NCBI GenBank assembly: GCA_910584255.1
Contig: CAJTXV010000001.1
Span: 17,130-81,129, forward strand
Length of the DNA: 64,000 nucleotides
Source: an uncultured Bacilli bacterium
GTDB lineage: Bacteria; Bacillota_I; Bacilli_A; RF39; UBA660
Direction: 5' to 3'
A model generated the notes under the pieces. The model was not told where the DNA came from. It worked only from the letters and a program-made list of their open reading frames with translations, and made no database searches. Positions 12,422-64,000 of the stretch are shown piece by piece. Positions within the stretch are counted from its first letter, which is position 1, and each line of letters starts with the position of its first letter. Made by a program: the position numbers and the translations under genes.

Positions 12422-12496
12422 TGGCTGCCCCAGCTAGATTCGAACTAGCGCATGGCAGATTCAGAGTCTGCAGCCTTACCGCTTGGCTATGGGGCA
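12422..12496 (-). tRNA. tRNA-Gln (anticodon CUG)
   Basis: Reverse complement folds as a cloverleaf UGCCCCA-...-anticodon stem GCAGA/UCUGC with loop CUCUGAA (U33, CUG, A37)-...-UGGGGCA-G-CCA. The U1-A72 pair is typical of bacterial tRNA-Gln. CCA is encoded. Confidence 0.85.
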
Positions 12497-12583: not shown

Positions 12584-15500
12584 TTATTCATTCAGTCCTC
12601 TTTTTCCTAAGATATAGTTTTTAATTCGAATCACATCGGGTGCCGTCACTAATCCATCTTGATTGATATCAACGATTTTTGTGACTAAGAAGTCGACTTG
12701 TTTCTTTCCTAAGACATAGTTCTTTGCTTGAATGTTATCAGCTGCTGTTACTAAGCCATCTCCATTTAAGTCCCCTCGAACGGTGATTACTAGTTCATCG
12801 TAAACAAATCCATCAATTTCTAGTTTGATTACCATGTAACTTCCTATGAATTTATCTTCTTCCGTAATCTCTACTCCATCACTTCCATAGATATGAAGTG
12901 TTTCTCTATCATTTAAGAAGTTTCCAATAAAATCTGTCTTCTTTGTTTTCGGATCCATTCCTATTACATAGTCTTTCGTTTCATTTCTGTCAATCGTATA
13001 AATATCACTTCGAATCGTATATTCTAGACTATCCCTTGTAATATTGATTTTATATTCTTGAGTTGTATATCCATCTTTCGCAATCACTTCTACGATATAA
13101 GTACTAATCGACCTATCTACTAAATTCACGTCTCCCATAAGATTGACTGTTGCGTTACTGTCTTTTGGTACCGCCGTAATTTCACTTTCTAGTAGTTTTC
13201 TCTTTGATTTTGAGACTTGGATATTATATTCAAAAGTATCTGGTTCAAAAGTAAATGGATATCCTAAAATTTCTAATCTCTCTAGTCTTACTTCACTTTC
13301 TGATTCTTTCTTAACATGAATTACATAGGTCTTTATACTTCCATCTTCAGCTGTTACTACGATATTTCTTGTGCTTTCTCCATCTGTTACTCCTAGTGTT
13401 TCATGTCCCACTACGGTCGCCTTACTACTTTCTGTTTTTACTTTAAATCCTAAACTATTTACATCTCTGCCTAACTCTAATGTATATTCTAAAGTTTCTT
13501 TATCGAAACTTGGATTTAAAGTTCCACCACTTGGAATTAAACTACTTAAATAATTATTACTTGATATTGGATTTTCAACTGTGATGGTGTATGTTTTTAC
13601 TACTCCTAATTCACTTGTTACTGTTACATTGATTGTATTGGTTCCTGCTTTTAATAGGATTATTCCATCTCCTACTACTGTCGCATTCTTATCATCTGAA
13701 TCTGCTTCTACTTTTGCATATTCTTCACTGGTTGTTAGATTTACTTGATATGTTAATGTTTCTTTATTAAATCCTATATCGTAGAGCCTTTCATCTAATC
13801 CAAAATAAAGTTTTAATTCTTTTAAATTATTGTTCTCTGATTGTTTTCTATTTACATTTACATAATAAGTTCTAGTAACTCCTATCATACTTCTAACTTT
13901 GATTGGAATTCTATTGATTCCTTTCTTTAAAGCATATGGATTTCCATTTCCTATTTTAGATGTAATTGTTGCGCTACTATCTTCTGCTGTTGCCTGGACT
14001 ATAATCTCTTCTATCTCGCCTTCTACTTCTACATTATACTCTAATGTAGTTGGATTAAATTTTGGATCTAATGTTCCATGATCTACACTTAAACTACTTA
14101 AGAAGTTATTTGATGACATTTGACGATTTACATATAGGATGTATTCTTCTTCTAGGGAATTATCACTTGATGTTACTTTGATATGTACTTCATTCATTCC
14201 AATCTCAAAGTTTTCATTTCCTGTGACTACAACTGTTGCATTGCTTTCTTCTTTTTCATAACTTAGTTCTAGTTCAGTTACCTCATAATCTACATCAACA
14301 TAATATTCAAATATTTCTTTGTTGAAGGTTTGATCTAAATCGTATCCTTTTATTTTTAAGTCTGTTAAGTAAGCACTTTTTACTTCAGATCGATTGACTG
14401 TAATTGTATAAATGTTGGTAAGTCCTGATTCACTAGTTACTGTAATATTGATAGTATTTTCTCCTATATTTAAATCATAATTTTTTAGTCCCAATACTGT
14501 AGCATTACTATCTTCTAGTGTTCCTGTAAATTCTATATTGTCATCTTCTGCCCCTACTTCAATTGTATAAGAATTTATCTCTTTATCAAAGGTTTGATTC
14601 CAAACACCAACATTACTATAAAGACTCGCTAAATAATTGTTATCACTTGCCTCTTTGGTGATTAGAATCTTATAATTTTTGTCTGTTCCTGCTTCAGAAG
14701 TTACCACGATGTCAAAATAGTTTTCTCCTGCATGGATTGGTTTTAATCCAGTACCAACTATTGTTGCATTACTATCTTCTGTTTTTGCCTTAATTATTAC
14801 ACTATTGATATTATTTGGAACCTCTACTGTATAGAACGTAATTCCTTTATGAAAGGTTGGAACTAACGTATAGCCTTCAACATCTAAAGAAGATAAATTA
14901 TTGTTCTTACTTCCTTCTTTCGTAATAGTTAAGGTATAAGTCTTTTTCGTTGTTCCATCTGGCGCTGTTACTTCAATTGTTACTGTATTTTCTCCTGTTT
15001 GAAAGTCTTGATTTCCACTTACTACATAGGTTGCTTCAGCCTCTGTTGGTTGTATCGTTGTAAAATCTAAGTAATCTTTACTTGTCTTTAAAGTATAGCC
15101 TAAAGTATTACTATTAAATGTTGGACTTAGCATATGACTCTTGACAACTAGACTAGAAAGTGTTGCATCACTTGATTTCTTCCTTGTTACTACGATTTGA
15201 TAGTCTCTTTGTACTCCATCGGTTCCAACCACAAAAACACTAATTCCATTCTTTCCTACATTTAAATGATACTTTCCTGTTCCTAATACTTGAACTTCAT
15301 CACTTAAGCTTTCTGCTGTTACTGTGATATCTGTAATATTATTTTCTACTTCTAATGTATAGTTCAATGTATCTGGATTAAAGATTGGACTAATTTCTCC
15401 TCGGTTGGTTTCTAAAGTTAATAACCCAAGATTTTCTGTTGTTGATTCTTGTCTTGTAATCGAAAGGGTATAGGTTTTTTTATTTCCTTTTGGAGCTGTC

Positions 15501-18500
15501 ACTATTACTTGTATTTCTCTTGGAACTCCTACTTCTAATCCTGTCGTATCTCCAACAATATCCACAGTTGCATCTTTATCTTCTGGGACCCCCTCAATAT
15601 GTACTTCCGTTTTATTGTTTGGTATCTTTACATCATAGAATATCGTTGTTTCTTGGAAATGTGGTGAAAGTCCCCCTTCTTCTACATAAAGAAAACTTAA
15701 ATCATCATTCGTTGACTGATCCCTGATGACTCTCACTACATAGTCCTTATAATTTCCTGCTTCACCTGTAACTCTCATGGTTATATCATTATTTCCTATA
15801 GTTAATGGATAATACCCATTTCCAGTTACTCTCGTACTACTACTAGTTGGTATTCCTTCTAGAATTATATCTGATATTTCATACTGTACATTAATTAAGT
15901 AATCATATCCAGTAACACTTGGATTTTCTGACTTCGTTACAGTACTTCCCCTGTTATTCTTAATCTCTTTGAATGTGATATCTTCATCTGTTTTCGCTTT
16001 ATTTACTGTAATTATATAGTCATTTGTTAATCCAGATTCACTTGTTACTGTAATCGTGATTTTGTTCTCTCCTTCTACTAATGAATAGATTCCGTTTCCT
16101 GAAACAGTTGCCATAGCATCTTCTTTGATTCCTTCCATATTTATTGTACTTACTTGTGCTCCTACTTCCATAGAATACTCATTTTTCGCCTTATCAAATT
16201 CAGGGGTTAGATTTCCTTCGCTTACCTTTAAACTCCTTAAGTAATTATTATCTGAGACTTCTTTTCTTACCTTAATAGTATATACTTTATATTCTTTGTT
16301 CTCTGCAACCACTGTAACCGTAATTTCTCCTACACTTTGATTTAAATTATTATTTCCTCGTATTATATATGTCGCATTCGTATCTTCTAATTCTACTTTT
16401 ACTTTTACACTCGTTACTTCTCTTGGTATCTCAATATTATATTCTAATGTGTCTTTGTCGAAGGTTGGATCTAACGGATATTCCTCTACTTCTAATTTCA
16501 ATATGTTAGTATTTGAAGATTTCTCTCGGTTAATTACTATCTCATATACATTGGTATCTCCATCTGGGGCAGTCACTGTTACATTTATGATATTTACACC
16601 TGATTTTAGTTTATGGACTCCATCATTCGTAACACTCGCTGAGGTATCCTCTAAGGTCACTCGAACATCTACTTCACTTACTTCATTTCCTACATTGATT
16701 TGATAAGTGTTTATAAATGAATTAAAGGTTGGGTCTAAGGTAAGCACACTTCCATTATGAAGTACTTCTAAATTACTTAAAAGTGTACTTACATTTACTT
16801 CATGATGGGCATGAATAATATACGTTCTGATATCACCATTTTGCGCAGTAACCGTAATAATACAATCATTCATTCCTGCTTTTAAGTTTGTATTTCCTTT
16901 GATACTTACTTTTGCCTTTGGATCCTTTGGTACTGCATTTACCGTATATTCACTTACCGTTTTTGGTATCGTTACATAATATTCATACGTATATGGTTTA
17001 AAATCTAACGCTACAACTGGGTCAGTGATTTCTAATACCTTTAATAGATTATTTCCTGTTGAATCTCTATCAATATTATAAGTATAAACAATATTTTGAC
17101 TATCATCTTCACTGATGACTTCAATTTCAAAACTATTGATTCCTGGTTCTAACGCTACACTACTTAAATCACTTACTACTTCTTTACTTCCATCACTTTT
17201 TAACTTTCGATATATTACTTCTTGATATTCTGATCTTTGCGTTACTTCAAATCCTATACTTAATGTTTTAAATGGTAATTTTATATTATATTCTGTTGTG
17301 GTTTCATTAAATTGATACTGACAGTATGATGCATTACTATCACACAAATATGCATAAGAATTCTCTATCTTAATATCGATTGGATGCGGGTTACTTGATC
17401 CTTTACGATTAATAATTAGTTTATAAACTCTAACACTATCATCTGTTGCGGTTACTTCGATTTCATGAATCGTTTGTCCTGGTGGAAGTTTAATTGTTTC
17501 ATCTCCACCTACTACTTTAGCGTCTTTATCCTTGGCAATTGCCTTAATCTTTAAAGAAGTATGGGTTTCATCTAAGTTTAAGATATATTCTTCTACCGTT
17601 GGGTCATAATCGATTTCAACATCCCCATCATCTAAAGTAATACTCTCCAAGAAATTATTATTACTTAAAACCGACAATAATTTTATTCTGGCATATCCAT
17701 CTCCAGAATGTCCGACACCATTCTCATAGTATCCTCCTTCTGGATCTGGCATTGGCGTAAGATTTCCTATAGTTGTCGTCCAATTGTATCCACGACCATC
17801 AATCATCCTAGTTTCAGTAAATACTTTCCCAGAATAATGATTTGCCTGTCCAGAAGCAACTCCATTTTCAGTGATGGCATTACATCCCGCATGTCCTGAG
17901 ATGAAGGATGATCCACCACCAGCACCTTGACCGGCACCACCACCACCAGTGGAACCTCCAGCGCCACCACCATAGTAGCCACCGCCACCACCACCGGCAC
18001 CAATGCCATCGGAAAATGAGTCGTTATTACCACCGATACCAAAAGTTCCAGGATTTACAGTACCATAAGCACCACTAAAAATGTTAGTTCCAGCAGATCC
18101 ACCAACAGTTTGGGTTCCACCTTTTCCATTTTGATTATAATACCTATGCCCAGAGTAATACCCTCCTGCATAACCATTCAATCCACCAGCGTAACTTCCT
18201 TCACCAGCAGTATTATAATTGCTAACGGAAACACCACCACCTGCTCCTGCAACCATGATTCTGGATTTTAGAGAATTTAAATCATTCCAATCTCCCTTCA
18301 CTAAACGAACGTCTGTGGCTCCTCCTCCAGAAGCACCAAAAACACCATAACCATAAGCCTTTCTAGTATTTCCACCATATCCACCACCATTAAAGGTAGA
18401 TTCTCTACTTTGTTCCTTTCCTTGTTCACCAATATAGAAATAAAGTTTTTCACCTAAATTTAATTTAATTTTTCCTTTAGTATATCCGCCTTTCCCTAAA

Positions 18501-20950
18501 TGACTAGATTCCTTATCAGAAGTTCCTCCAGAAGCACCCCATAATTCAATTTCATAAAATCCTGAATATGGAACAATGTACTCAATAGGGCCTTTTGTTA
18601 ATCCTATGCCTTGCCCAACATCTCCGATATCAGATTTTTTCACAACATGAATTGTATAAACGGTATCATCTACTCCATCTAAATGGGAAGTAATTGTTAT
18701 TATACTCTCCTCTGCATCAATGTATTTATTTCCAGTAATTGTGACTACAGTTCCTTCAAAGTATGTTTCTGTTTCAAAATCAAGACTGAATATACTATCT
18801 AAAATCTCTATATTATACTCTAACTTTTCTGAAGTAAATCCAAATGGGATAGAAGTCTTAACTGATTTTAATAATGATGTTCTTTTTCTTGTAAAGTTAA
18901 AAGTATATAATTGATTTTCACTATTATCTTCACTCTTTGATAATAGCGTTAAAGTCTTTCCATTTTCATTAAATTCAAATTGTCCTTCTCCTGAAACTGT
19001 TTGTCCAGTAATATGTTTGATTGCTTCTAAATGAATATAGTTTACATTGGTAGGAAGTTCAATATTATATTCATAAGTATTTGGGCTGAATCCTTCATAA
19101 GGAATTCCATTGATTTTAACACCATCTAAGAATTTATAATTACTAATTTCACGACTTACATGAATAACATAAGTAACAACTTTTCCATCATAGTTTAGCA
19201 CGGTAATTGTATAAATATTTTCACCTTCTGGGACCGTAAAGGTTCCTGTTCCTGTGACATAAGACCATTCCTCTTCTGAAACAGCATCAATCGTAATTGT
19301 TTCATCTCTATGAGAGAGTTTTAAATTATATTCAAAAATATCAGAATCAAATGTTGGTGTATAAGAATTATTTGTTCCACTTACTGTTAAAGAACTAAGT
19401 CCAGTTGCTTCATGATCATAACGATAGGTAATTCTAGCATACCCATCCCCATCATGTCCTGCACCTTCATCATAAGTTCCACCTTCTGGTTTTGGCATTG
19501 AGGTTAAACTCCCTAATGCAGTCGTCCAATTGTATCCTTTTCCATCAATCATTACAGTATCAGTAAATATTTTTCCACTATAATGATAAGAATCTTCTAT
19601 TTGTGAATAAGTTGTAACTTTTGGTGTTCCATCTTCATTAATGGCAATCGCACCAGCATGCCCTGAGATGAAGGATGATCCACCTCCAGCACCTTGACCG
19701 AAACCACCGCCACCAGTGGCACCTCCAGCGCCGCCACCGTAGTAGCCACCGCCACCGCCTCCAGCTCCGCCTCCAGAAGAATGTGATTCATTGTTACCAC
19801 CTATTCCGAAAGTTCCAGGATTTACAGTACCATAAGCGCCACTATAAATGTTAGTTCCAGCAGATCCACCAGCAGTTTGGGTTCCTCCTTTTCCATTTTG
19901 ATTTGCATAACCATGTCCAGAGTAATATCCACCATCATAACCATTCAAACCTCCAGCATAGCTTCCACCACCAGCACTATTATAAAGACTATAACCAATT
20001 CCACCACCAGCACCAGCAACCATGATTCTAGACTTCAGGGATTCTAGATTATCCCAGTCGCCACCAACTAAACGGACATCTGTAGCTCCTCCTCCAGAAG
20101 CACCAGCAGGGTAACCACCTGCTCCACCACCATTGAATTTGCTTTCTCTATCTGCTGGTTTTCCTTGTTCTCCAACATAAAAATAAAGTCTTTCCCCCGC
20201 TGTTAAATAAATTTTTCCTTTTGTATAGCTTCCCTTTCCGTGATGAGTGTATTGGGGGGCATCCTCATAGACTCCTCCTGAAGCTCCCCATAATTCTATA
20301 TCATAATATCCTGTTTCAGGTATTATATATTCATTTGCTTGTGCTTCCGTAAAATCTCTAACTAATGTTTTTCTATTAATCGTAAAAGTGTAAATTCTTT
20401 CATACCCAGTCACTGAACTAGTTACTTTAATCCTAATTTCATTTTTTCCAGGATGTAAATTTAAAATATCAAGAACTTCATAGATAGTATCAGCAGAATT
20501 AGTTACTATAGGTGTTACTTTATCTATTTCATATTTTACTTCTAAATCATAGGTATCTACTTTTGGGTCAAACGAAAAGTCAACTTCAGCAAAAGATACA
20601 TCATCTAAACAAGGAAGATTTCTTTTGATATTTAGCGTATATAAAGATAAATTTCCATAGTGATCAATTACAGAAATATAATGTGCTGTATTCACATCTA
20701 ATTCTTGATTTCCTGTACCAAAAATATAGTAATTATCTAAAGAGGTTGTATAAGTAATTTCAGAATTTACATGTTCTGTATCTAAATATAAATCATACTC
20801 ATATTTATTTTCTTCTAAGGAATTCATCATCCCATTTTTTATAGTGATTGAATCTAAGGCATGAGAAAGAGCTTCTACCTTATTTGTAGAAAAGAAACAG
20901 ATAGCAATTAAAAATATGGATATTAAAGTAATTTTTCCTAATCTCTTCAT
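12584..20950 (-). CDS. Giant secreted surface protein (2788 aa): signal peptide, two tandem glycine-rich domains (ALK/LTK-type Gly_rich-like), about 17 cadherin-like beta-sandwich repeats, C-terminal type I dockerin
   Basis: Single uninterrupted ORF. Signal peptide MKRLGKITLISIFLIAICFF...VEA. Two modules of about 300 aa with YDIELWGASGG, GGGATDVRLV, RIMVAGAGGG and long poly-Gly runs (GGGGGGYYGGGAGG). Repeated ~85-aa units LSSLxVxxGxLxPxFxxxxxxYxxxV...ATV...GxNxIxIxVTAxDGxxKxYTIxIxR. The C-terminus DLNGDGLVTAADNIQAKNYVLG...DINQDGLVTAPDVIRIKNYILG matches the duplicated dockerin calcium-binding segment. Confidence 0.85.
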   Translation of the reverse strand: MKRLGKITLISIFLIAICFFSTNKVEALSHALDSITIKNGMMNSLEENKYEYDLYLDTEHVNSEITYTTSLDNYYIFGTGNQELDVNTAHYISVIDHYGNLSLYTLNIKRNLPCLDDVSFAEVDFSFDPKVDTYDLEVKYEIDKVTPIVTNSADTIYEVLDILNLHPGKNEIRIKVTSSVTGYERIYTFTINRKTLVRDFTEAQANEYIIPETGYYDIELWGASGGVYEDAPQYTHHGKGSYTKGKIYLTAGERLYFYVGEQGKPADRESKFNGGGAGGYPAGASGGGATDVRLVGGDWDNLESLKSRIMVAGAGGGIGYSLYNSAGGGSYAGGLNGYDGGYYSGHGYANQNGKGGTQTAGGSAGTNIYSGAYGTVNPGTFGIGGNNESHSSGGGAGGGGGGYYGGGAGGATGGGGFGQGAGGGSSFISGHAGAIAINEDGTPKVTTYSQIEDSYHYSGKIFTDTVMIDGKGYNWTTALGSLTSMPKPEGGTYDEGAGHDGDGYARITYRYDHEATGLSSLTVSGTNNSYTPTFDSDIFEYNLKLSHRDETITIDAVSEEEWSYVTGTGTFTVPEGENIYTITVLNYDGKVVTYVIHVSREISNYKFLDGVKINGIPYEGFSPNTYEYNIELPTNVNYIHLEAIKHITGQTVSGEGQFEFNENGKTLTLLSKSEDNSENQLYTFNFTRKRTSLLKSVKTSIPFGFTSEKLEYNIEILDSIFSLDFETETYFEGTVVTITGNKYIDAEESIITITSHLDGVDDTVYTIHVVKKSDIGDVGQGIGLTKGPIEYIVPYSGFYEIELWGASGGTSDKESSHLGKGGYTKGKIKLNLGEKLYFYIGEQGKEQSRESTFNGGGYGGNTRKAYGYGVFGASGGGATDVRLVKGDWNDLNSLKSRIMVAGAGGGVSVSNYNTAGEGSYAGGLNGYAGGYYSGHRYYNQNGKGGTQTVGGSAGTNIFSGAYGTVNPGTFGIGGNNDSFSDGIGAGGGGGGYYGGGAGGSTGGGGAGQGAGGGSSFISGHAGCNAITENGVASGQANHYSGKVFTETRMIDGRGYNWTTTIGNLTPMPDPEGGYYENGVGHSGDGYARIKLLSVLSNNNFLESITLDDGDVEIDYDPTVEEYILNLDETHTSLKIKAIAKDKDAKVVGGDETIKLPPGQTIHEIEVTATDDSVRVYKLIINRKGSSNPHPIDIKIENSYAYLCDSNASYCQYQFNETTTEYNIKLPFKTLSIGFEVTQRSEYQEVIYRKLKSDGSKEVVSDLSSVALEPGINSFEIEVISEDDSQNIVYTYNIDRDSTGNNLLKVLEITDPVVALDFKPYTYEYYVTIPKTVSEYTVNAVPKDPKAKVSIKGNTNLKAGMNDCIITVTAQNGDIRTYIIHAHHEVNVSTLLSNLEVLHNGSVLTLDPTFNSFINTYQINVGNEVSEVDVRVTLEDTSASVTNDGVHKLKSGVNIINVTVTAPDGDTNVYEIVINREKSSNTNILKLEVEEYPLDPTFDKDTLEYNIEIPREVTSVKVKVELEDTNATYIIRGNNNLNQSVGEITVTVVAENKEYKVYTIKVRKEVSDNNYLRSLKVSEGNLTPEFDKAKNEYSMEVGAQVSTINMEGIKEDAMATVSGNGIYSLVEGENKITITVTSESGLTNDYIITVNKAKTDEDITFKEIKNNRGSTVTKSENPSVTGYDYLINVQYEISDIILEGIPTSSSTRVTGNGYYPLTIGNNDITMRVTGEAGNYKDYVVRVIRDQSTNDDLSFLYVEEGGLSPHFQETTIFYDVKIPNNKTEVHIEGVPEDKDATVDIVGDTTGLEVGVPREIQVIVTAPKGNKKTYTLSITRQESTTENLGLLTLETNRGEISPIFNPDTLNYTLEVENNITDITVTAESLSDEVQVLGTGKYHLNVGKNGISVFVVGTDGVQRDYQIVVTRKKSSDATLSSLVVKSHMLSPTFNSNTLGYTLKTSKDYLDFTTIQPTEAEATYVVSGNQDFQTGENTVTIEVTAPDGTTKKTYTLTITKEGSKNNNLSSLDVEGYTLVPTFHKGITFYTVEVPNNINSVIIKAKTEDSNATIVGTGLKPIHAGENYFDIVVTSEAGTDKNYKILITKEASDNNYLASLYSNVGVWNQTFDKEINSYTIEVGAEDDNIEFTGTLEDSNATVLGLKNYDLNIGENTINITVTSESGLTNIYTITVNRSEVKSAYLTDLKIKGYDLDQTFNKEIFEYYVDVDYEVTELELSYEKEESNATVVVTGNENFEIGMNEVHIKVTSSDNSLEEEYILYVNRQMSSNNFLSSLSVDHGTLDPKFNPTTLEYNVEVEGEIEEIIVQATAEDSSATITSKIGNGNPYALKKGINRIPIKVRSMIGVTRTYYVNVNRKQSENNNLKELKLYFGLDERLYDIGFNKETLTYQVNLTTSEEYAKVEADSDDKNATVVGDGIILLKAGTNTINVTVTSELGVVKTYTITVENPISSNNYLSSLIPSGGTLNPSFDKETLEYTLELGRDVNSLGFKVKTESSKATVVGHETLGVTDGESTRNIVVTAEDGSIKTYVIHVKKESESEVRLERLEILGYPFTFEPDTFEYNIQVSKSKRKLLESEITAVPKDSNATVNLMGDVNLVDRSISTYIVEVIAKDGYTTQEYKINITRDSLEYTIRSDIYTIDRNETKDYVIGMDPKTKKTDFIGNFLNDRETLHIYGSDGVEITEEDKFIGSYMVIKLEIDGFVYDELVITVRGDLNGDGLVTAADNIQAKNYVLGKKQVDFLVTKIVDINQDGLVTAPDVIRIKNYILGKRGLNE
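17651..18583 (-). repeat. Internal gene duplication, copy 2 of the glycine-rich domain module within the giant surface-protein gene
   Basis: Protein segment about 790-1100 is nearly identical to segment about 200-520 (e.g. SLKSRIMVAGAGGG, GGSAGTNI(Y/F)SGAYGTVNPGTFGIGGNN). The spurious plus/minus ORFs at 17803-18042 and 19597-19800 translate to nearly the same peptide. Confidence 0.7.
19391..20353 (-). repeat. Internal gene duplication, copy 1 of the glycine-rich domain module
   Basis: See copy 2. Long near-identical nucleotide stretches (e.g. ccaccaccggcaccaatgcc / ccgccgcctccagctccgcc regions encoding GGGAGGG runs). Confidence 0.7.
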
Positions 20951-54327: not shown

Positions 54328-55140
54328 CTAATTTTCCAAAATTTTTTCTATATCATCTCTAACAACTTTTACAGCATGTCCACCCATTTTAGCAATTTTT
54401 TTATTTTGTTCTAATCCAGAAGGTTTATGAATACTCGCAAGTTCACGAGTCGCAATTTCTCCTAAATCAGTAAGTGCAACTTCGATATTAGACATATTAT
54501 CTCGAAGTGACTCTTTTCTAAGTCCTTTATGCGCCTTATATTCACTTTCCTTCATACCAGACCATTCTTTATATATTTCATTCGTAAGTATTCCATATTC
54601 GAAAGCATTAGAAATAGTACCTTCTTTCCATAAATTTGTTAGTTTATTTCTATCTAGTATTCCTTTTAATTTTGCCTCAATCCATTAGTCAGAATATCCC
54701 TTTTTACGATAATAGTCAATTGCTCTTTTAATAGCAATTTCAGGATCAAATACTTCATCAATTCTTTTAATAGCAATTTCAGGATCAAATACTTCATCAA
54801 TTCTTTCACTACCTAAAGAAGCTAACCACATTTTAAACGATTCTGCTTTAGGTGAGGGAATTGATTCAATAAGTCTTAATATTCCTTTTGTGTCTAAAGT
54901 ATCAGTAAAATAACTTTTTCCATCCTTTTTTGATTTCATTTTCAATTGTACACATTTTGTGGACAACTCACTTTGCTCTTCTTCAGTCATTCTTTTTTTC
55001 ATCATATTCCAATAATTTCTTGATTATTGCTATCAGTTAGAACAGATACTACATCTATTACACTAAAATAATAATCTTCTTTTTCTCTATCCCAAACACT
55101 TCTAATTTCGCTCCCTTCAAATAATCCCACAATTGTTTTT
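54328..55140 (-). pseudogene. Decayed dinD/Bro-N-family gene (DNA-damage-inducible protein D-like): frameshift at an A7 run, 39-bp tandem duplication, in-frame TAA
   Basis: Upstream frame GLFEGSEIRSVWDREKEDYYFSVIDVVSVLTDSNNQEIIGI (Bro-N N-terminal half) shifts at atgatgaaaaaaagaatg into the 106-aa ORF (...GILRLIESIPSPKAESFKMWLA). A TAA stop is then followed in the same frame by WIEAKLKGILDRNKLTNLWKEG... and the 75-aa ORF (...LTDLGEIATRELASIHKPSGLEQNKKIAKMGGHAVKVVRDDIEK), a DinD-like C-terminal region. Confidence 0.55.
54726..54803 (-). repeat. Perfect tandem duplication of a 39-bp unit inside the dinD-like gene
   Basis: ttttaatagcaatttcaggatcaaatacttcatcaattc occurs twice back to back. Encodes the duplicated IDEVFDPEIAIKR. 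Confidence 0.85.
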
Positions 55141-58833: not shown

Positions 58834-59103
58834 TTATTTTCTTAATCCTAAACTTTTTACAACTTCTCTATATCTTTGGACATCTTTTTTAGCTAAGTAA
58901 TTTAACATACTTCTTCTTTGTCCAACTTTTTTAAGAAGTCCACGACGAGAATGATGATCATGTTTGTGTACTTTTAAATGCTCTGTTAACTCTTTAATTT
59001 CTTCTGTTAAAATTGCAATTTGTACCTCTGCAGATCCTGTATCTTTCTCTCCTCTAGCATACTTTTTAACAATCTCTTCTTTTTTCTCTTTTGTTAAAGC
59101 CAT
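58834..59103 (-). CDS. rpsO: 30S ribosomal protein S15
   Basis: 89 aa. Highly conserved S15 sequence ([48 protein letters not shown]). Classic position upstream of pnp. Confidence 0.95.
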
Positions 59104-60624: not shown

Positions 60625-63600
60625 TTAATCCTTTTCAACATCTAACTGAACTTCTAAACCATTCAAATTATAAACTTCTCCTTGATTTTTCTTTTCTTCA
60701 ATGGATAATGCCAAAGTTTCATCTTGAATTAGATTTGTATAATTTGAAATTGCTTCTTTAAATTCTTTTGGTCCTTCGTAGTAGATATGAATTCTATCTG
60801 TAATATCAAAGTCTTTATTCTTTCTTAGATTTTGTACTTTGCTGATTAATTCACGTACAATTCCTTCATGTAACAAATCTTCTGTTAAGGTTGTATTTAG
60901 TACAATAAAATTACTTCCTTCATGAGATGCATTGAATCCTTCTTTAGAAGATACTCGAATTTCTACCATTTCTCTAGTGATTTCAAATTCTTCATTCCCT
61001 ACTTCCATTTTAATCGTATCTTCATGGTCAAGGGCTGTAATTTTATCCATATCTAAACTTGCTAATTTTTGACTGAACTCTTTAATATTTGCACCAAATA
61101 ATTTTCCACATATCTTAAAGTTTGGTTTTACTTCATAGTTCATATAATCAGATAAATCTTCTTTGAATATTATATCTTTTACATTTAATTCTTCTTTGAT
61201 TAAATCAATCATATCAGAAATTGTGTTTTCAATTTTTCCATCTAAGATGATTTCTCCAATTGGTTGACGGACTTTAATCTTTGCTTCTTCTCTTGCATTT
61301 CTTCCTAAGGAAATTAAATCTCTTACTAAATCCATTCGATATTCGATATCCTCTCTGATATAGGCTTCATTCCAAGTAGGATAATCGGATAAATGAACAC
61401 TTTCTTCTCCTGTTAGATTGGTATAAATCTCATCTGCAAGAAAAGGTGCAATTGGCGCTACTAGTTTTGTGATACCCACCAATACTTCATAGCTTGTTTG
61501 ATAGACTGCTTTTTTCGAAGTATCTAATTCTCCTTTCCAGAAACGTCTACGATTTCTTCTAATGTACCAATTAGATAGTTCTTCATTTACAAATTGATTG
61601 ATCAAACGAACTGCTTTATTTAAGTCATATTCGTCCATGGCAGAAGTTGTATATTTTACTAGTCTATTGTATTTTGATAACAGCCACCAATCAATTTCTT
61701 CTAAGTCATTATAATTTACTTTACAGTCCTTGACATCAACTTTATCTGTATTGGCATAAAGTTCAAAGAAAGTATAGGTATTTCTTAGCGTATTAAAAAA
61801 TTTAGATTGTACTTCTTTGATTCCATCTTCATCAAACTTTAATGGTGTCCATACTGGAGAAGTTGACAACATATACCATCTAGTTGCATCTGCTCCATAG
61901 GTTTCAATAATAGAAAATGGTTCTACTGCATTTCCTTTCGATTTGTGCATCTTTTGACCGAACTTATCTAAAAGTAAGTCATTGACAAGTACATTCTTAT
62001 AAGGACTGCATCCTTTAATAAAAGTAGAAATTACAATTAATGAATAGAACCACCCACGTGTTTGGTCAATTCCTTCTGAAATAAAGTCTGCTGGAAATTG
62101 TTTTTCAAAGAGTTCTTTATTTTCAAATGGATAATGATACTGTGCAAAAGGCATCGCACCACTATCAAACCAACAATCCATTACGTCTTTGACACGTGAC
62201 ATTTCTTTTCCACATTCTGGACACTTAATATGAATATCGTCTACATAAGGTCTATGTAATTCGATGGTCTCATCTATTTCTTCGATTGATTTTTCTACTA
62301 GTTCACTTCTTGAACCAATCATCTCGTCATGTCCACAACTACATCTCCATAGTGGAATTGGAGTACCCCAGTAACGGTTTCTAGAAATCGCCCAATCATT
62401 CATATTTTCAAGCCAATTTCCAAATCTTTTTTCACCCACATATTCTGGATACCAATGAACCGCATTATTCGCTTCAATAATCTTATCTTTAAAAGCTGTT
62501 GTTTTAATATAAAGACTTGGTTTTGAATAGTAAACGAGTGGTGTTTTGCATCGCCAACAATGTGGATAGTTGTGTTCCATCTTTTGTTTTTTGAAAAGTT
62601 TATCTTCACCCGCTAGATACTTAATAATTTCAACTTCTAACTCAGAGTCTACTACAAGTCTACCTTTCCAAGGACCTTCTGTATAACAACCATTCTCATC
62701 GACTGGATTTAATATTGGTAAATCATATTGTAGTCCTACCTCATAGTCATCTTGTCCAAATGCTGGAGCGATATGAACGATTCCCGTTCCATCTCCCATC
62801 GTAACATAGTCTGCACATGTTACAAAGAAGGCCTTTTTGTTTACTTTTAAAAATGGTAAGAATTGCTCATACTCACGATATTCTAAATCTTTTCCAAGAT
62901 ATTCTTCTACAACTTCAACGTCATCCCCTAGTACTTTATGGGCTAGTTTTTTTGCAACAATGAAATTGTATCCTTTAGACAAACACTTTACATATTTTTC
63001 TTTAGGGTTGACACAAGCTGCTATGTTGGACATTAAAGTCCATGGCGTAGTGGTCCAAATTAGTAAATAAGTGTTCTCTTCCTCTTTCATTTTAAAAGGA
63101 ACTGTTACCGTATTGACACTAATTTCTTTATATCCTTGGGCAACCTCATGAGAAGCAAGTCCTGTTCCACATCTTGGACAGTATGGAAGAATTTTTAATC
63201 CATCGTAAATTAATCCTTCCTCAAAGAATTTCTTTAAAATCCACCATTCTGTTTCAATATAGTTATTATCGTAGGTAATATATGGATGTTCTAAGTCAAT
63301 AAATTGACCCATCTTGTTTGTAAAATCCCGAAATGCTTTTTCGTTTTTCCAAACCGATTCACGACATTTCTCATTAAATTCTTTAATTCCATACTTTTCG
63401 ATATCTGTTTTTCCCTCGAATCCAAGTTCTTTTTCTACTTGAACTTCAACTGGTAATCCATGAGTGTCCCATCCTACTTTACGTAAAACTTTATACCCTT
63501 TCATTGTCTTATATTTACAGATAGAGTCTTTTAAAAGCTTCGCAAGCATATGGTGAATTCCTGGCATTCCATTCCCTATTGTCTGATAAAGATACATTAT

Positions 63601-63672
63601 TTTGAGCGACAGTGGATTCGCTCTTGTTAATTCCATTTTTCTTCGTTTCCTTTCTAGTTTTTGGTAAGTCAT
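60625..63672 (-). CDS. ileS: Isoleucine--tRNA ligase (isoleucyl-tRNA synthetase), long form
   Basis: KMHKSKGN (KMSKS), WDTHGLPVE, a CP1 editing domain and a zinc-binding C-terminus. 1015 aa. The N-terminal region before the HIGH-like segment (NGMPGIHHMLAKLLKD) is unusually short and overlaps another ORF. Confidence 0.85.
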   Translation of the reverse strand: MTYQKLERKRRKMELTRANPLSLKIMYLYQTIGNGMPGIHHMLAKLLKDSICKYKTMKGYKVLRKVGWDTHGLPVEVQVEKELGFEGKTDIEKYGIKEFNEKCRESVWKNEKAFRDFTNKMGQFIDLEHPYITYDNNYIETEWWILKKFFEEGLIYDGLKILPYCPRCGTGLASHEVAQGYKEISVNTVTVPFKMKEEENTYLLIWTTTPWTLMSNIAACVNPKEKYVKCLSKGYNFIVAKKLAHKVLGDDVEVVEEYLGKDLEYREYEQFLPFLKVNKKAFFVTCADYVTMGDGTGIVHIAPAFGQDDYEVGLQYDLPILNPVDENGCYTEGPWKGRLVVDSELEVEIIKYLAGEDKLFKKQKMEHNYPHCWRCKTPLVYYSKPSLYIKTTAFKDKIIEANNAVHWYPEYVGEKRFGNWLENMNDWAISRNRYWGTPIPLWRCSCGHDEMIGSRSELVEKSIEEIDETIELHRPYVDDIHIKCPECGKEMSRVKDVMDCWFDSGAMPFAQYHYPFENKELFEKQFPADFISEGIDQTRGWFYSLIVISTFIKGCSPYKNVLVNDLLLDKFGQKMHKSKGNAVEPFSIIETYGADATRWYMLSTSPVWTPLKFDEDGIKEVQSKFFNTLRNTYTFFELYANTDKVDVKDCKVNYNDLEEIDWWLLSKYNRLVKYTTSAMDEYDLNKAVRLINQFVNEELSNWYIRRNRRRFWKGELDTSKKAVYQTSYEVLVGITKLVAPIAPFLADEIYTNLTGEESVHLSDYPTWNEAYIREDIEYRMDLVRDLISLGRNAREEAKIKVRQPIGEIILDGKIENTISDMIDLIKEELNVKDIIFKEDLSDYMNYEVKPNFKICGKLFGANIKEFSQKLASLDMDKITALDHEDTIKMEVGNEEFEITREMVEIRVSSKEGFNASHEGSNFIVLNTTLTEDLLHEGIVRELISKVQNLRKNKDFDITDRIHIYYEGPKEFKEAISNYTNLIQDETLALSIEEKKNQGEVYNLNGLEVQLDVEKD

Positions 63673-64000
63673 CTATTATTTCTGTACCACTATTTAAAAT
63701 AAATTTTATATAGTATGGATTCTTCGTACCATCATCTTCAATCTTACCTATAATTATCTTTTCGACTAATGTCTCAAACACTTCCCTACTGAATTCTTCT
63801 AAAATAGTAGGTGAAGCAAAAATTTGCTTAAATCTATCAATTCGTGACTTAATATTTTTATTATCGCCAATAACTTTTTCATATTCCCCAATTTTTAAAC
63901 TCAACAACTCTATCTTATTATTTAACTCTTGATATTTTTTTAAATATATATCTTGATCAACTAAACCTTCCAGTTTCATATCTACCAAATTAGACTGCTT
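63515..64000 (-). CDS. Partial CDS (C-terminus; gene continues beyond window end): large serine recombinase-like protein
   Basis: Coiled-coil segment (DQDIYLKKYQELNNKIELLSLKIGEYEK) followed by REVFETLVEKIIIGKIEDDGTKNPYYIKFIL, the characteristic C-terminal pattern of large serine recombinases. The frame stays open to the window edge. Its 3' end overlaps the ileS 5' end. Confidence 0.5.
   Translation of the reverse strand, partial: KQSNLVDMKLEGLVDQDIYLKKYQELNNKIELLSLKIGEYEKVIGDNKNIKSRIDRFKQIFASPTILEEFSREVFETLVEKIIIGKIEDDGTKNPYYIKFILNSGTEIIDDLPKTRKETKKNGINKSESTVAQNNVSLSDNREWNARNSPYACEAFKRLYL

What the first reader, a model, noticed from the sequence alone, without database searches (positions are those of the whole stretch)
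63515..64000. Large serine recombinase C-terminus overlaps the 5' end of ileS; likely boundary of an integrated element inserted at the ileS start
The recombinase-like ORF enters from beyond the window and ends at 63515, inside the first ~50 codons of the ileS ORF. The ileS N-terminus (MTYQKLERKRRKMELTRANPLSLKIMYLYQTIGNG...) is shorter and more divergent than expected before the HIGH segment. No T-box leader (no AGGGUGGNACCGCG-like motif) lies upstream, where Firmicutes ileS usually has one. This pattern fits a serine-recombinase element (phage or ICE) integrated at the 5' end of ileS and supplying a new start, as seen with skin/sigK and SPβ/spsM in gene-targeting recombinases.
Basis: partly seen in the sequence, partly recalled or inferred. 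Interest (0 to 1): 0.6.

Follow-up and report, generated by a model that had tools for sequence, protein, structure and literature searches.

The report
Mobile element inserted in ileS
The right edge of the window is the junction where a transmissible DNA element, placed by a large serine recombinase, has split the essential isoleucyl-tRNA synthetase gene after codon 47; this is a known kind of event at a target not previously reported.

Summary
[quoted passage not shown] That gene lies at the right end of an integrated element of at least 22 kb. The element carries a relaxase and looks like an ICE or IME, not a phage.

Near-identical strains without the element have a 1029-aa type-2 ileS with its own promoter and T-box leader. 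Their identity to the window starts exactly at 63573. The element sits at codons 47/48 (GCC-AAT-GGA), just before the GIHH signature motif. The other junction, found in another assembly, carries the promoter, T-box and ileS codons 1-47. The two junctions share a 3-bp core, AAT.

The reconstructed attP is an imperfect inverted repeat centred on AA and lies inside the recombinase ORF. This is why the recombinase reads 19 codons into ileS DNA out of frame.

Four diverged recombinase lineages occupy the same ileS position. One identical element end sits in ileS genes only 61% identical.

It is unproven whether the element-encoded in-frame start (MYLYQTIG|NGMPGIHH...) yields a working IleRS. That remains the interesting open point.

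The parts
63515..64000 (-). 3' part (161 codons plus the TAA stop at 63515-63517) of the element's 591-aa large serine recombinase gene. The last 19 codons (63518-63574) are read from ileS DNA in another frame.
   Evidence: ORF. (full gene L008 3814-5589; PF00239, PF07508, PF13408; motif AAYCRVST). (identity to the empty site starts at 63573).
63574..64000 (-). Right-end DNA of the integrated element (ICE/IME-like). The rest of the element lies beyond the window end.
   Evidence: No similarity to empty-site loci L007, L011, L012 above 63573. 100% identical to L008, L010, L022 and L027, which continue into sortase, SUFU-like, relaxase and SSB genes.
63543..63603 (-). attR: the P arm (63574-63603, containing ATGTATCTTT at 63588-63597), the core, and the B' arm (63543-63570, ileS codons for GMPGIHHML).
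   Evidence: attB, attL, attR and attP reconstructed from L011, L025 and L008. The attP arms match at 20 of 30 positions around AA (shuffles 8.9 +/- 2.4, maximum 18).
63571..63573 (-). Core AAT shared by attL, attR, attB and attP. The inferred crossover dinucleotide is AA (63572-63573).
   Evidence: Left-junction identity to the empty site ends at L011 1526 and right-junction identity begins at 1524. Symmetry is best with AA as centre (20/30 against 12/30 for AT).
60625..63573 (-). Host-derived part of ileS (codon 48 to the stop). It is a type-2 IleRS with the non-canonical GIHH signature, separated from its promoter, T-box and first 47 codons.
   Evidence: (TIGR00392, 935.7 bits for the intact allele; MupA/MupB-like). 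(closest solved structures are IleRS2 entries 8c8u-w). PMC10485003 for the GXHH motif.
63574..63672 (-). Element-encoded open frame in phase with ileS (33 codons, MTYQKLERKRRKMELTRANPLSLKIMYLYQTIG). In-frame ATGs at 63670-63672, 63634-63636 and 63595-63597. The last one is the only start shared by all four lineages.

Best explanation
Window 63515-64000 is the attR end of an integrative, mobilizable or conjugative element. A large serine recombinase (LSR) inserted it into the chromosomal type-2 ileS gene.

Shown:
- The recombinase recombined an attP site, an imperfect inverted repeat centred on AA that lies inside the 3' end of its own ORF, with an attB made of ileS codons of roughly ...GPATA-NG-MPGIHH....
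- The host promoter, T-box leader and codons 1-47 now lie at attL, on the far side of the element. There they end in a 57-aa stub ORF.
- Codons 48-1029 lie at attR, directly after the recombinase gene.
- The recombinase ORF has no stop before the core. In the integrated state it runs 19 codons into ileS DNA in another frame. In the excised state it would read 50 codons into the element's left end, giving a predicted 622 aa.

Inferred (about 50%): the remaining ileS is still expressed. Transcription would come from the co-oriented element genes. Translation would start at an element-encoded in-frame start, the ATG/GTG in ATAATGTATCTT shared by all lineages. The product would be a hybrid IleRS, MYL(Y/I/F)xxxG-NGMPGxHH..., no longer under T-box control. 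This is the same logic as SXT in prfC and the dusA islands.
For: Empty versus occupied alleles at 99.98% identity, with the breakpoint at 63573.

Full recombinase with all three LSR domains. Its best PDB match is a conjugative-transposon recombinase, 3g13.

Reciprocal junction with T-box and ileS codons 1-47 in L025 and L026. The core is AAT. The attP arms match 20/30 against 8.9 +/- 2.4 in shuffles.

Element content: relaxase, NikA-like protein, SSB, sortase, an HTH_36 protein, all co-oriented with ileS.

Four recombinase lineages (53-83% identical) sit at the same ileS position. An identical 1859-nt element end lies in an ileS only 61% identical.

For the hybrid:
- The ileS frame is open for 33, 44, 25 and 16 codons before the core, against a stop frequency of 0.08-0.105 per codon in that frame.
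- An in-frame ATG/GTG sits at the same place in all four lineages.
- The downstream ileS ORFs are intact wherever the contig covers them (full length in L008, L018, L019; open to the contig end in L017 and L031).
- Precedents exist in PMC8409611.
Against: Against a working hybrid:
- The shared ATG lies inside the recombinase-binding motif ATGTATCTTT, which is mirrored in the other attP arm. Its conservation therefore needs no coding explanation.
- There is no conserved Shine-Dalgarno sequence before it, and no promoter-like site above chance.
- The hybrid lacks the native N-terminal 36 residues or so. It replaces FVFYDGPATA, the first Rossmann strand and the GP(P/A) loop, with unrelated residues.
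- In lineage L031 the frame is open for only 16 codons.

Other limits:
- A second ileS in the host or on the unseen part of the element could not be excluded.
- The element's full length and any type IV secretion genes were not seen. The left-end genes are not on the 145-kb contig.
Confidence: 0.85

Rival explanations
1. The insertion inactivates this ileS copy. The host lives on a second isoleucyl-tRNA synthetase, either a chromosomal ileS1/ileS2 paralogue or one carried on the unseen part of the element. The in-frame element ORF is then a by-product of the att site.
For: IleRS2 can be the sole or the second ileS in bacteria (PMC10485003). The conserved ATG is part of the attP arm motif. There is no conserved ribosome-binding site or promoter. 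The hybrid lacks the native first strand. At least 43 kb upstream of L027 on the contig were never seen.
Against: No aaRS gene occurs in the 22 kb of element seen, nor elsewhere in the 64-kb window. The empty-site gene has a housekeeping-style promoter, T-box and strong Shine-Dalgarno sequence. The ileS frame before the core is open for longer than expected in three of four lineages.
Confidence: 0.3
2. A skin- or SP-beta-like intervening element. The gene is silent while the element is integrated and is rebuilt only by programmed excision, as in active lysogeny or a developmental switch.
For: It uses the same recombinase family and is inserted within a gene. Precise excision at the AA core would restore ileS exactly.
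Against: ileS is a housekeeping gene needed in every growing cell, not a late-differentiation gene. The occupied state is the assembled consensus in several metagenomes. The element carries transfer functions (relaxase). No attP or excised form appears among the recombinase cluster members.
Confidence: 0.1
3. The element is a temperate phage (prophage) rather than a conjugative or mobilizable element.
For: Many LSRs are phage integrases. The closest annotated relatives (40-43% identity) are in records named as phages (Erysipelothrix phi1605, Streptococcus '_rum' elements).
Against: The element has a MobA/VirD2 relaxase with a NikA-like partner, sortase and surface protein genes. No capsid, tail or terminase gene occurs in the 22 kb seen, nor in relatives L018 and L019. 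IMG/VR gave no hit.
Confidence: 0.05
4. An assembly chimera, or a native gene order in which the recombinase is simply the upstream neighbour of ileS.
For: All data come from metagenome assemblies.
Against: The junction is identical in at least four independent assemblies. The reciprocal junction shares a 3-bp core. Empty sites occur in near-identical strains. The same element sits in two other ileS alleles.
Confidence: 0.01

Closest known systems
SXT/R391 ICEs in prfC, and dusA-specific integrative elements (IMEVchUSA3)
   Same: These are transmissible elements that insert in the 5' coding part of a conserved host gene. They leave the native promoter and first codons at one junction. At the other junction they supply a new in-frame 5' coding sequence, and experimentally a promoter (PMC8409611).
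   Different: Those use tyrosine recombinases, live in Gammaproteobacteria and target non-essential genes. Their new N-termini resemble the native one (61% identity for dusA). Here the enzyme is a serine recombinase, the target is an essential aaRS, and the replaced segment includes a core strand next to the active-site signature. Expression has not been tested.
skin (SpoIVCA/sigK), SP-beta (SprA/spsM) and the Listeria comK prophage (A118-type integrase)
   Same: A large serine recombinase encoded at the edge of an element that interrupts a protein-coding gene. Precise excision restores the gene. SprA (PDB 9dxh) is a detectable homologue.
   Different: In those cases the interrupted gene is dispensable during growth and is rebuilt by regulated excision. 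They are phage-derived. Here the element carries a relaxase and the gene is housekeeping.
LSR-bearing conjugative elements of Firmicutes (Tn5397 TndX, Tn4451 TnpX; streptococcal ICEs in rumA; SCCmec CcrAB/CcrC)
   Same: Same recombinase architecture. The best structural match is a conjugative-transposon recombinase (3g13). CcrC and CcrB are the top NCBIfam hits, far below their cut-offs. Identity to the '_rum' element recombinases is 40-43%. There is a weak DUF4368-like C-terminal region.
   Different: Different target: ileS was not found as an LSR target in the literature searches. This recombinase is strictly site-specific, unlike the multi-targeting DUF4368 TndX clade (10.1101/2021.11.05.467528). 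It is only distantly related, at 43% identity or less.
Phage Mx8 IntP and SSV-type integrases (attP inside the integrase ORF)
   Same: attP lies within the recombinase coding sequence, so integration gives the enzyme a new 3' end (PMC6070905, PMC7253208).
   Different: Those are tyrosine recombinases. Here only an apparently unstructured tail after the last domain is exchanged. No functional consequence has been shown.

Membership tests
Large serine recombinase (serine integrase) | N-terminal resolvase-type catalytic domain with the serine nucleophile | tested here: met
   PF00239 is on the full gene. The motif AAYCRVST is near residue 30. PDB matches to 3g13, gamma-delta resolvase, TP901-1 and SprA.
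Large serine recombinase (serine integrase) | Recombinase domain (PF07508) plus zinc-ribbon domain (PF13408) C-terminal to the catalytic domain | tested here: met
   Both domains are recorded for the 591-aa product and for all close homologues. Only the part after them lies in the window. Pfam on the window fragment gives just a weak DUF4368 hit, E 0.012.
Large serine recombinase (serine integrase) | Short attP/attB sites with a 2-bp crossover and no long direct repeats; attP is an imperfect inverted repeat | tested here: met
   The junctions share only a 3-bp core, AAT. The attP arms match 20/30 around AA, against 8.9 +/- 2.4 in shuffles.
Large serine recombinase (serine integrase) | Catalyses attP x attB recombination; excision needs a directionality factor | not testable with these tools
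   Supported only indirectly, by empty and occupied alleles and by the same element in three ileS alleles.
Integrative and conjugative element (ICE) | Site-specific integration module with defined attL and attR | tested here: met
   attR is in the window, L008 and L022. attL is in L025 and L026.
Integrative and conjugative element (ICE) | Relaxase / DNA-processing module | tested here: met
   PF03432 relaxase, E 1.8e-28, preceded by a NikA-like protein. Relatives L018 and L019 have the same order.
Integrative and conjugative element (ICE) | Own type IV secretion system and coupling protein (this separates an ICE from a mobilizable IME) | tested here: inconclusive
   None occurs in the roughly 22 kb seen. 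The left and middle parts of the element could not be fetched.
5'-end integrators that restore the target gene (SXT/prfC, dusA islands) | Insertion within the 5' coding region, with an element-encoded in-frame start and new N-terminus at attR | tested here: met
   Insertion is after codon 47. An in-frame ORF with ATG or GTG is present in all four lineages.
5'-end integrators that restore the target gene (SXT/prfC, dusA islands) | Element-borne promoter, and demonstrated expression and function of the hybrid gene | not testable with these tools
   The promoter scan is not above chance. There is no conserved Shine-Dalgarno sequence. This needs transcript, protein or complementation data.
Developmentally excised intervening elements (skin, SP-beta) | The interrupted gene is needed only after programmed excision in a terminal cell type | tested here: not met
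   The target is ileS (TIGR00392, 935.7 bits), with a T-box leader in the empty site. It is a housekeeping gene.
T-box leader (RF00230), on the displaced ileS 5' region | Match to the covariance model, including the T-box sequence and terminator/antiterminator | tested here: inconclusive
   81.3 bits over the full model, E 3e-18, but below Rfam's gathering score of 93. AUC triplets are present in the stem I region. It is absent from the window.
Type-2 IleRS with non-canonical GXHH signature | IleRS2-type sequence with G/A-X-H-H in place of H-X-G-H | tested here: met
   The sequence reads NGMPGIHHML. It is MupA/MupB-like and passes the ileS equivalog. The best PDB matches are P. megaterium IleRS2 entries. 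The motif is defined in PMC10485003.

The most novel reading that the evidence does not exclude
The P arm of attP may be triple-coded. It would serve at once as the recombinase tail, the recombinase-binding site, and a substitute first strand and start codon for IleRS. This would let a family of transmissible elements occupy the signature-motif codons of an essential aminoacyl-tRNA synthetase across distant hosts without killing them. In doing so it would rewire regulation. ileS would lose T-box control and become element-driven. The orphaned ileS promoter and T-box would read into the co-oriented element, so element gene expression would respond to tRNA-Ile charging.
Probability: 0.15. Interest if true: 0.75.

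Novelty: new member of a known kind. Interest (0 to 1): 0.45.

Why it matters
Serine-recombinase elements that insert in conserved genes are well known. An insertion 47 codons into an essential aaRS gene, right at its active-site signature, is unusual. It also cuts the gene off from its T-box riboswitch.

If the hybrid gene works, this would show:
- how much of the IleRS N-terminus is replaceable;
- a new way for a mobile element to take over the expression of a core translation gene;
- a natural case of T-box-controlled transcription entering a mobile element.

On the practical side, the locus gives a defined LSR with attP and attB that tolerates diverged targets. It is also a marker for strain-level variation in uncultured gut Bacilli.

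Tried and rejected
- Exact look-up of the 1015-aa ileS ORF found nothing, because gene callers chose other starts.
- A search with the 161-aa window fragment found only a degenerate 257-aa remnant, P0001, in an unrelated neighbourhood.
- Two scans of GTDB species representatives, one IMG/VR scan and one JGI metagenome scan gave nothing, or only a 39-residue fragment. The clade is therefore known here only from Logan, ENA and NCBI MAG contigs.
- Rfam at gathering threshold missed the T-box. It was found only with the E-value threshold.
- Walking further left along the 145-kb contig was blocked by look-up rules and caps. The element's full length, any T4SS genes and any cargo ileS remain unseen.
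- Promoter and terminator scans at attR and attL were no better than shuffles, apart from the native ileS promoter at attL.
- The 50-codon extension of the excised-form recombinase has no detectable homologue, so I do not claim that it is functional.
- I considered AlphaFold on the hybrid IleRS and dropped it. An alignment-driven model would place the substitute strand regardless, so it could not discriminate between the readings.
- Literature searches found no report of ileS as an LSR target.
Full report
**What is at the coordinates**

On the minus strand an ORF enters from beyond 64000 and ends at TAA 63515-63517. It overlaps the 5' end of a 1015-aa ileS ORF (60625-63672). The window fragment alone gives only a weak DUF4368 hit (E 0.012). 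The Pfam tRNA-synt_1 match on IleRS starts at residue 34, profile position 35, so the normal N-terminus is missing. No T-box is detectable in 63300-64000.

**Finding the source and the empty site**

An exact-protein look-up with the neighbouring rpsO (58834-59103) returned contigs of the same organism. L008/L022 (GCA_949026485.1) and L010 (GCA_949949055.1) are 100% identical to the last 7 kb of the window. [quoted passage not shown]

L007, L011, L012 and L021 are 99.7-99.98% identical downstream. They carry a 1029-aa ileS and no recombinase. Their identity to the window begins exactly at window 63573.

Upstream of the intact gene lie:
- a promoter-like site, TTGAAA-17-TATAGT with a TG extension;
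- a T-box leader (RF00230, 81.3 bits, E 3e-18, below the gathering score of 93);
- a strong Shine-Dalgarno sequence.

The intact protein reads ...DYFVFYDGPATA|NGMPGIHHMLAK.... The window's ORF reads MTYQKLERKRRKMELTRANPLSLKIMYLYQTIG|NGMPGIHHMLAK.... The insertion is therefore after codon 47, just before the signature motif. That motif is the non-canonical GXHH form of type-2 IleRS (PMC10485003).

**The other junction and the att sites**

A variant of the upstream neighbour protein led to L025 (GCA_948705595.1) and L026. In these loci the promoter, the T-box (L025 3570-3773) and ileS codons 1-47 continue into foreign DNA. They end as a 57-aa ORF (...GPATANPMALKRYII*).

Left-junction identity to the empty site ends at L011 1526. 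Right-junction identity begins at 1524. The shared core is therefore AAT.

The reconstructed attP is ...AAAATAATGTATCTTTATCAGACAATAGGG-AA-TCCTATGGCATTGAAAAGATACATAATATA.... It is an imperfect inverted repeat, with 20 of 30 positions matched around AA. Shuffled arms give 8.9 +/- 2.4, with a maximum of 18. Centring on AT gives only 12. This is the expected anatomy of a serine-integrase attP. attB shows only weak symmetry (7/30), which is also usual.

**Why the recombinase overlaps ileS**

attP lies inside the 3' end of the recombinase ORF, and the ORF has no stop before the core.
- In the integrated state it reads 19 further codons from ileS DNA in another frame (EWNARNSPYACEAFKRLYL*), giving 591 aa.
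- In the excised circle it would read 50 codons of the element's left end, giving a predicted 622 aa.
- The extension has no detectable homologue, so I do not claim it has a function.

Homologues confirm the pattern. P0006 ends ...GEWNARNSPYACKVT. The tails of P0005, P0007 and P0008 back-translate, shifted by one base, to NGM(P/H)G(V/L)HH (confirmed on DNA). More distant subclades end in a conserved ...GA(N/Y)C(N/D)xEKY.... They probably read into their own targets in the same way. Mx8 IntP is a tyrosine-recombinase precedent for attP inside int (PMC6070905).

**What the element is**

About 22 kb is visible (L027, L022, and the L025 left end), and all genes are co-oriented with ileS. The genes seen are:
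- an HTH_36 protein at the left end;
- surface and Ig-like proteins;
- SSB and NT5C;
- a 469-aa protein with a resolvase domain;
- a NikA-like protein and a MobA/VirD2 relaxase (E 1.8e-28);
- an HTH regulator and a SUFU-like protein;
- sortase, then the LSR.

Relatives L018 and L019 add ArdC-N and a methyltransferase, in the same order. No phage structural genes are seen, and IMG/VR gave no hit. No T4SS genes are in the visible part, so ICE versus IME is open. GC is about 25%, against 31.7% for the window.

The closest annotated recombinases are only 40-43% identical: Erysipelothrix phi1605 and the streptococcal '_rum' elements. The best PDB match is a conjugative-transposon recombinase, 3g13.

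**Evidence that the system is active and specific**

Four recombinase lineages (100%, 66%, 61% and 53% identity) sit at the same ileS position in different hosts. The 1859 nt at the end of the element are identical, with 0 mismatches, in L008 and L017. Yet the adjoining IleRS proteins are only 60.8% identical, and the B' arm differs at several positions. A third tail variant, P0139, implies a third ileS allele. Most members of the host IleRS clusters are full length, so occupancy is a minority state.

**The open question: how is insertion in an essential gene tolerated?**

For a functional hybrid:
- All four lineages have an in-frame ATG or GTG ten codons before the core. The products would be MYLYQTIG, MYLIAGTG, MYLFTGIG and (V)YLFPGKP, each followed by NGMPGxHH.
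- The ileS frame is open for 33, 44, 25 and 16 codons before the core. The stop frequency in that frame is 0.08-0.105 per codon, and the median open run is 5-8 codons.
- The downstream ileS ORFs are intact wherever the contig covers them.
- All element genes point into ileS.
- A lineage that keeps targeting this site could hardly persist if insertion were lethal.
- SXT/prfC and the dusA islands do exactly this (PMC8409611).

Against:
- The shared ATG lies within the mirrored ATGTATCTTT arm motif.
- There is no conserved Shine-Dalgarno sequence. However, only about 60% of host genes show one by a crude test.
- No promoter-like site stands above chance.
- The native first strand and GP(P/A) loop are replaced by unrelated residues.
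- A second IleRS, which is known in some bacteria (PMC10485003), could not be checked.

I put the hybrid at about 50%, a second IleRS at about 30%, and regulated excision or other explanations at the rest.

**Comparison and novelty**

This is a bona fide LSR-driven integrative element. The target, ileS at the GXHH motif, was not found in the literature searched. The clade is absent from GTDB representatives. It is a new member of a known kind. It has one unresolved, potentially interesting twist: an essential aaRS split from its T-box, with a possible element-supplied N-terminus.

Noticed in passing
P0009-P0020 (recombinase homologues, about 50% identity): A neighbouring subclade of these recombinases ends in a conserved ...(F/V)GA(N/Y)C(N/D)(T/N)(E/D)KY(S/C)... 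tail. This suggests their ORFs also run across attR into a different conserved host target. Having attP inside the ORF may be a family trait.
   Followed up: no
L001-L006, P0001 at L001 6696-7469: A 257-aa ORF holds only the C-terminal third of a related recombinase, fused to an unrelated N-terminus. It sits among NUDIX, acetyltransferase, radical-SAM and ABC transporter genes, with no ileS nearby. It is probably a decayed recombinase remnant.
   Followed up: partly
window about 54,760-54,800 (L008 about 14,337 versus L007): Occupied-site strains carry an insertion or duplication of about 38 bp, plus a 1-nt indel, relative to empty-site strain L007, in the Bro-N domain gene. That gene is called as 135 aa in L007 but as 105 aa (plus 42 aa in L010) in occupied strains.
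   Followed up: partly
L025 and L026 right ends (about 1.7 kb inside the element's left end): Both independent assemblies shown (L025, L026) break at the same point about 1.7 kb into the element. The left-end genes (P0144, P0145) are not on the 145-kb contig that holds attR. This suggests a repeat, strain heterogeneity, or a very large or composite element.
   Followed up: partly
L017 1858-3563: The second host's IleRS has NAKPGIHH and GLDTHGLP instead of NGMPGIHH and GWDTHGLP. It is only 61% identical to the window's enzyme, yet it carries the identical element end. This is either a distant host or a divergent paralogue.
   Followed up: partly
window 12584-20950 (-) and 12425-12496 (-): There is a very large ORF of 2788 aa, with a tRNA gene immediately downstream of it. 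This tRNA is the only Rfam gathering-level hit in the whole window.
   Followed up: no
L027 8561-9970: The element encodes a second serine-recombinase-like protein of 469 aa whose resolvase domain is at the C-terminal end (residues 328-435). This is an unusual arrangement.
   Followed up: no
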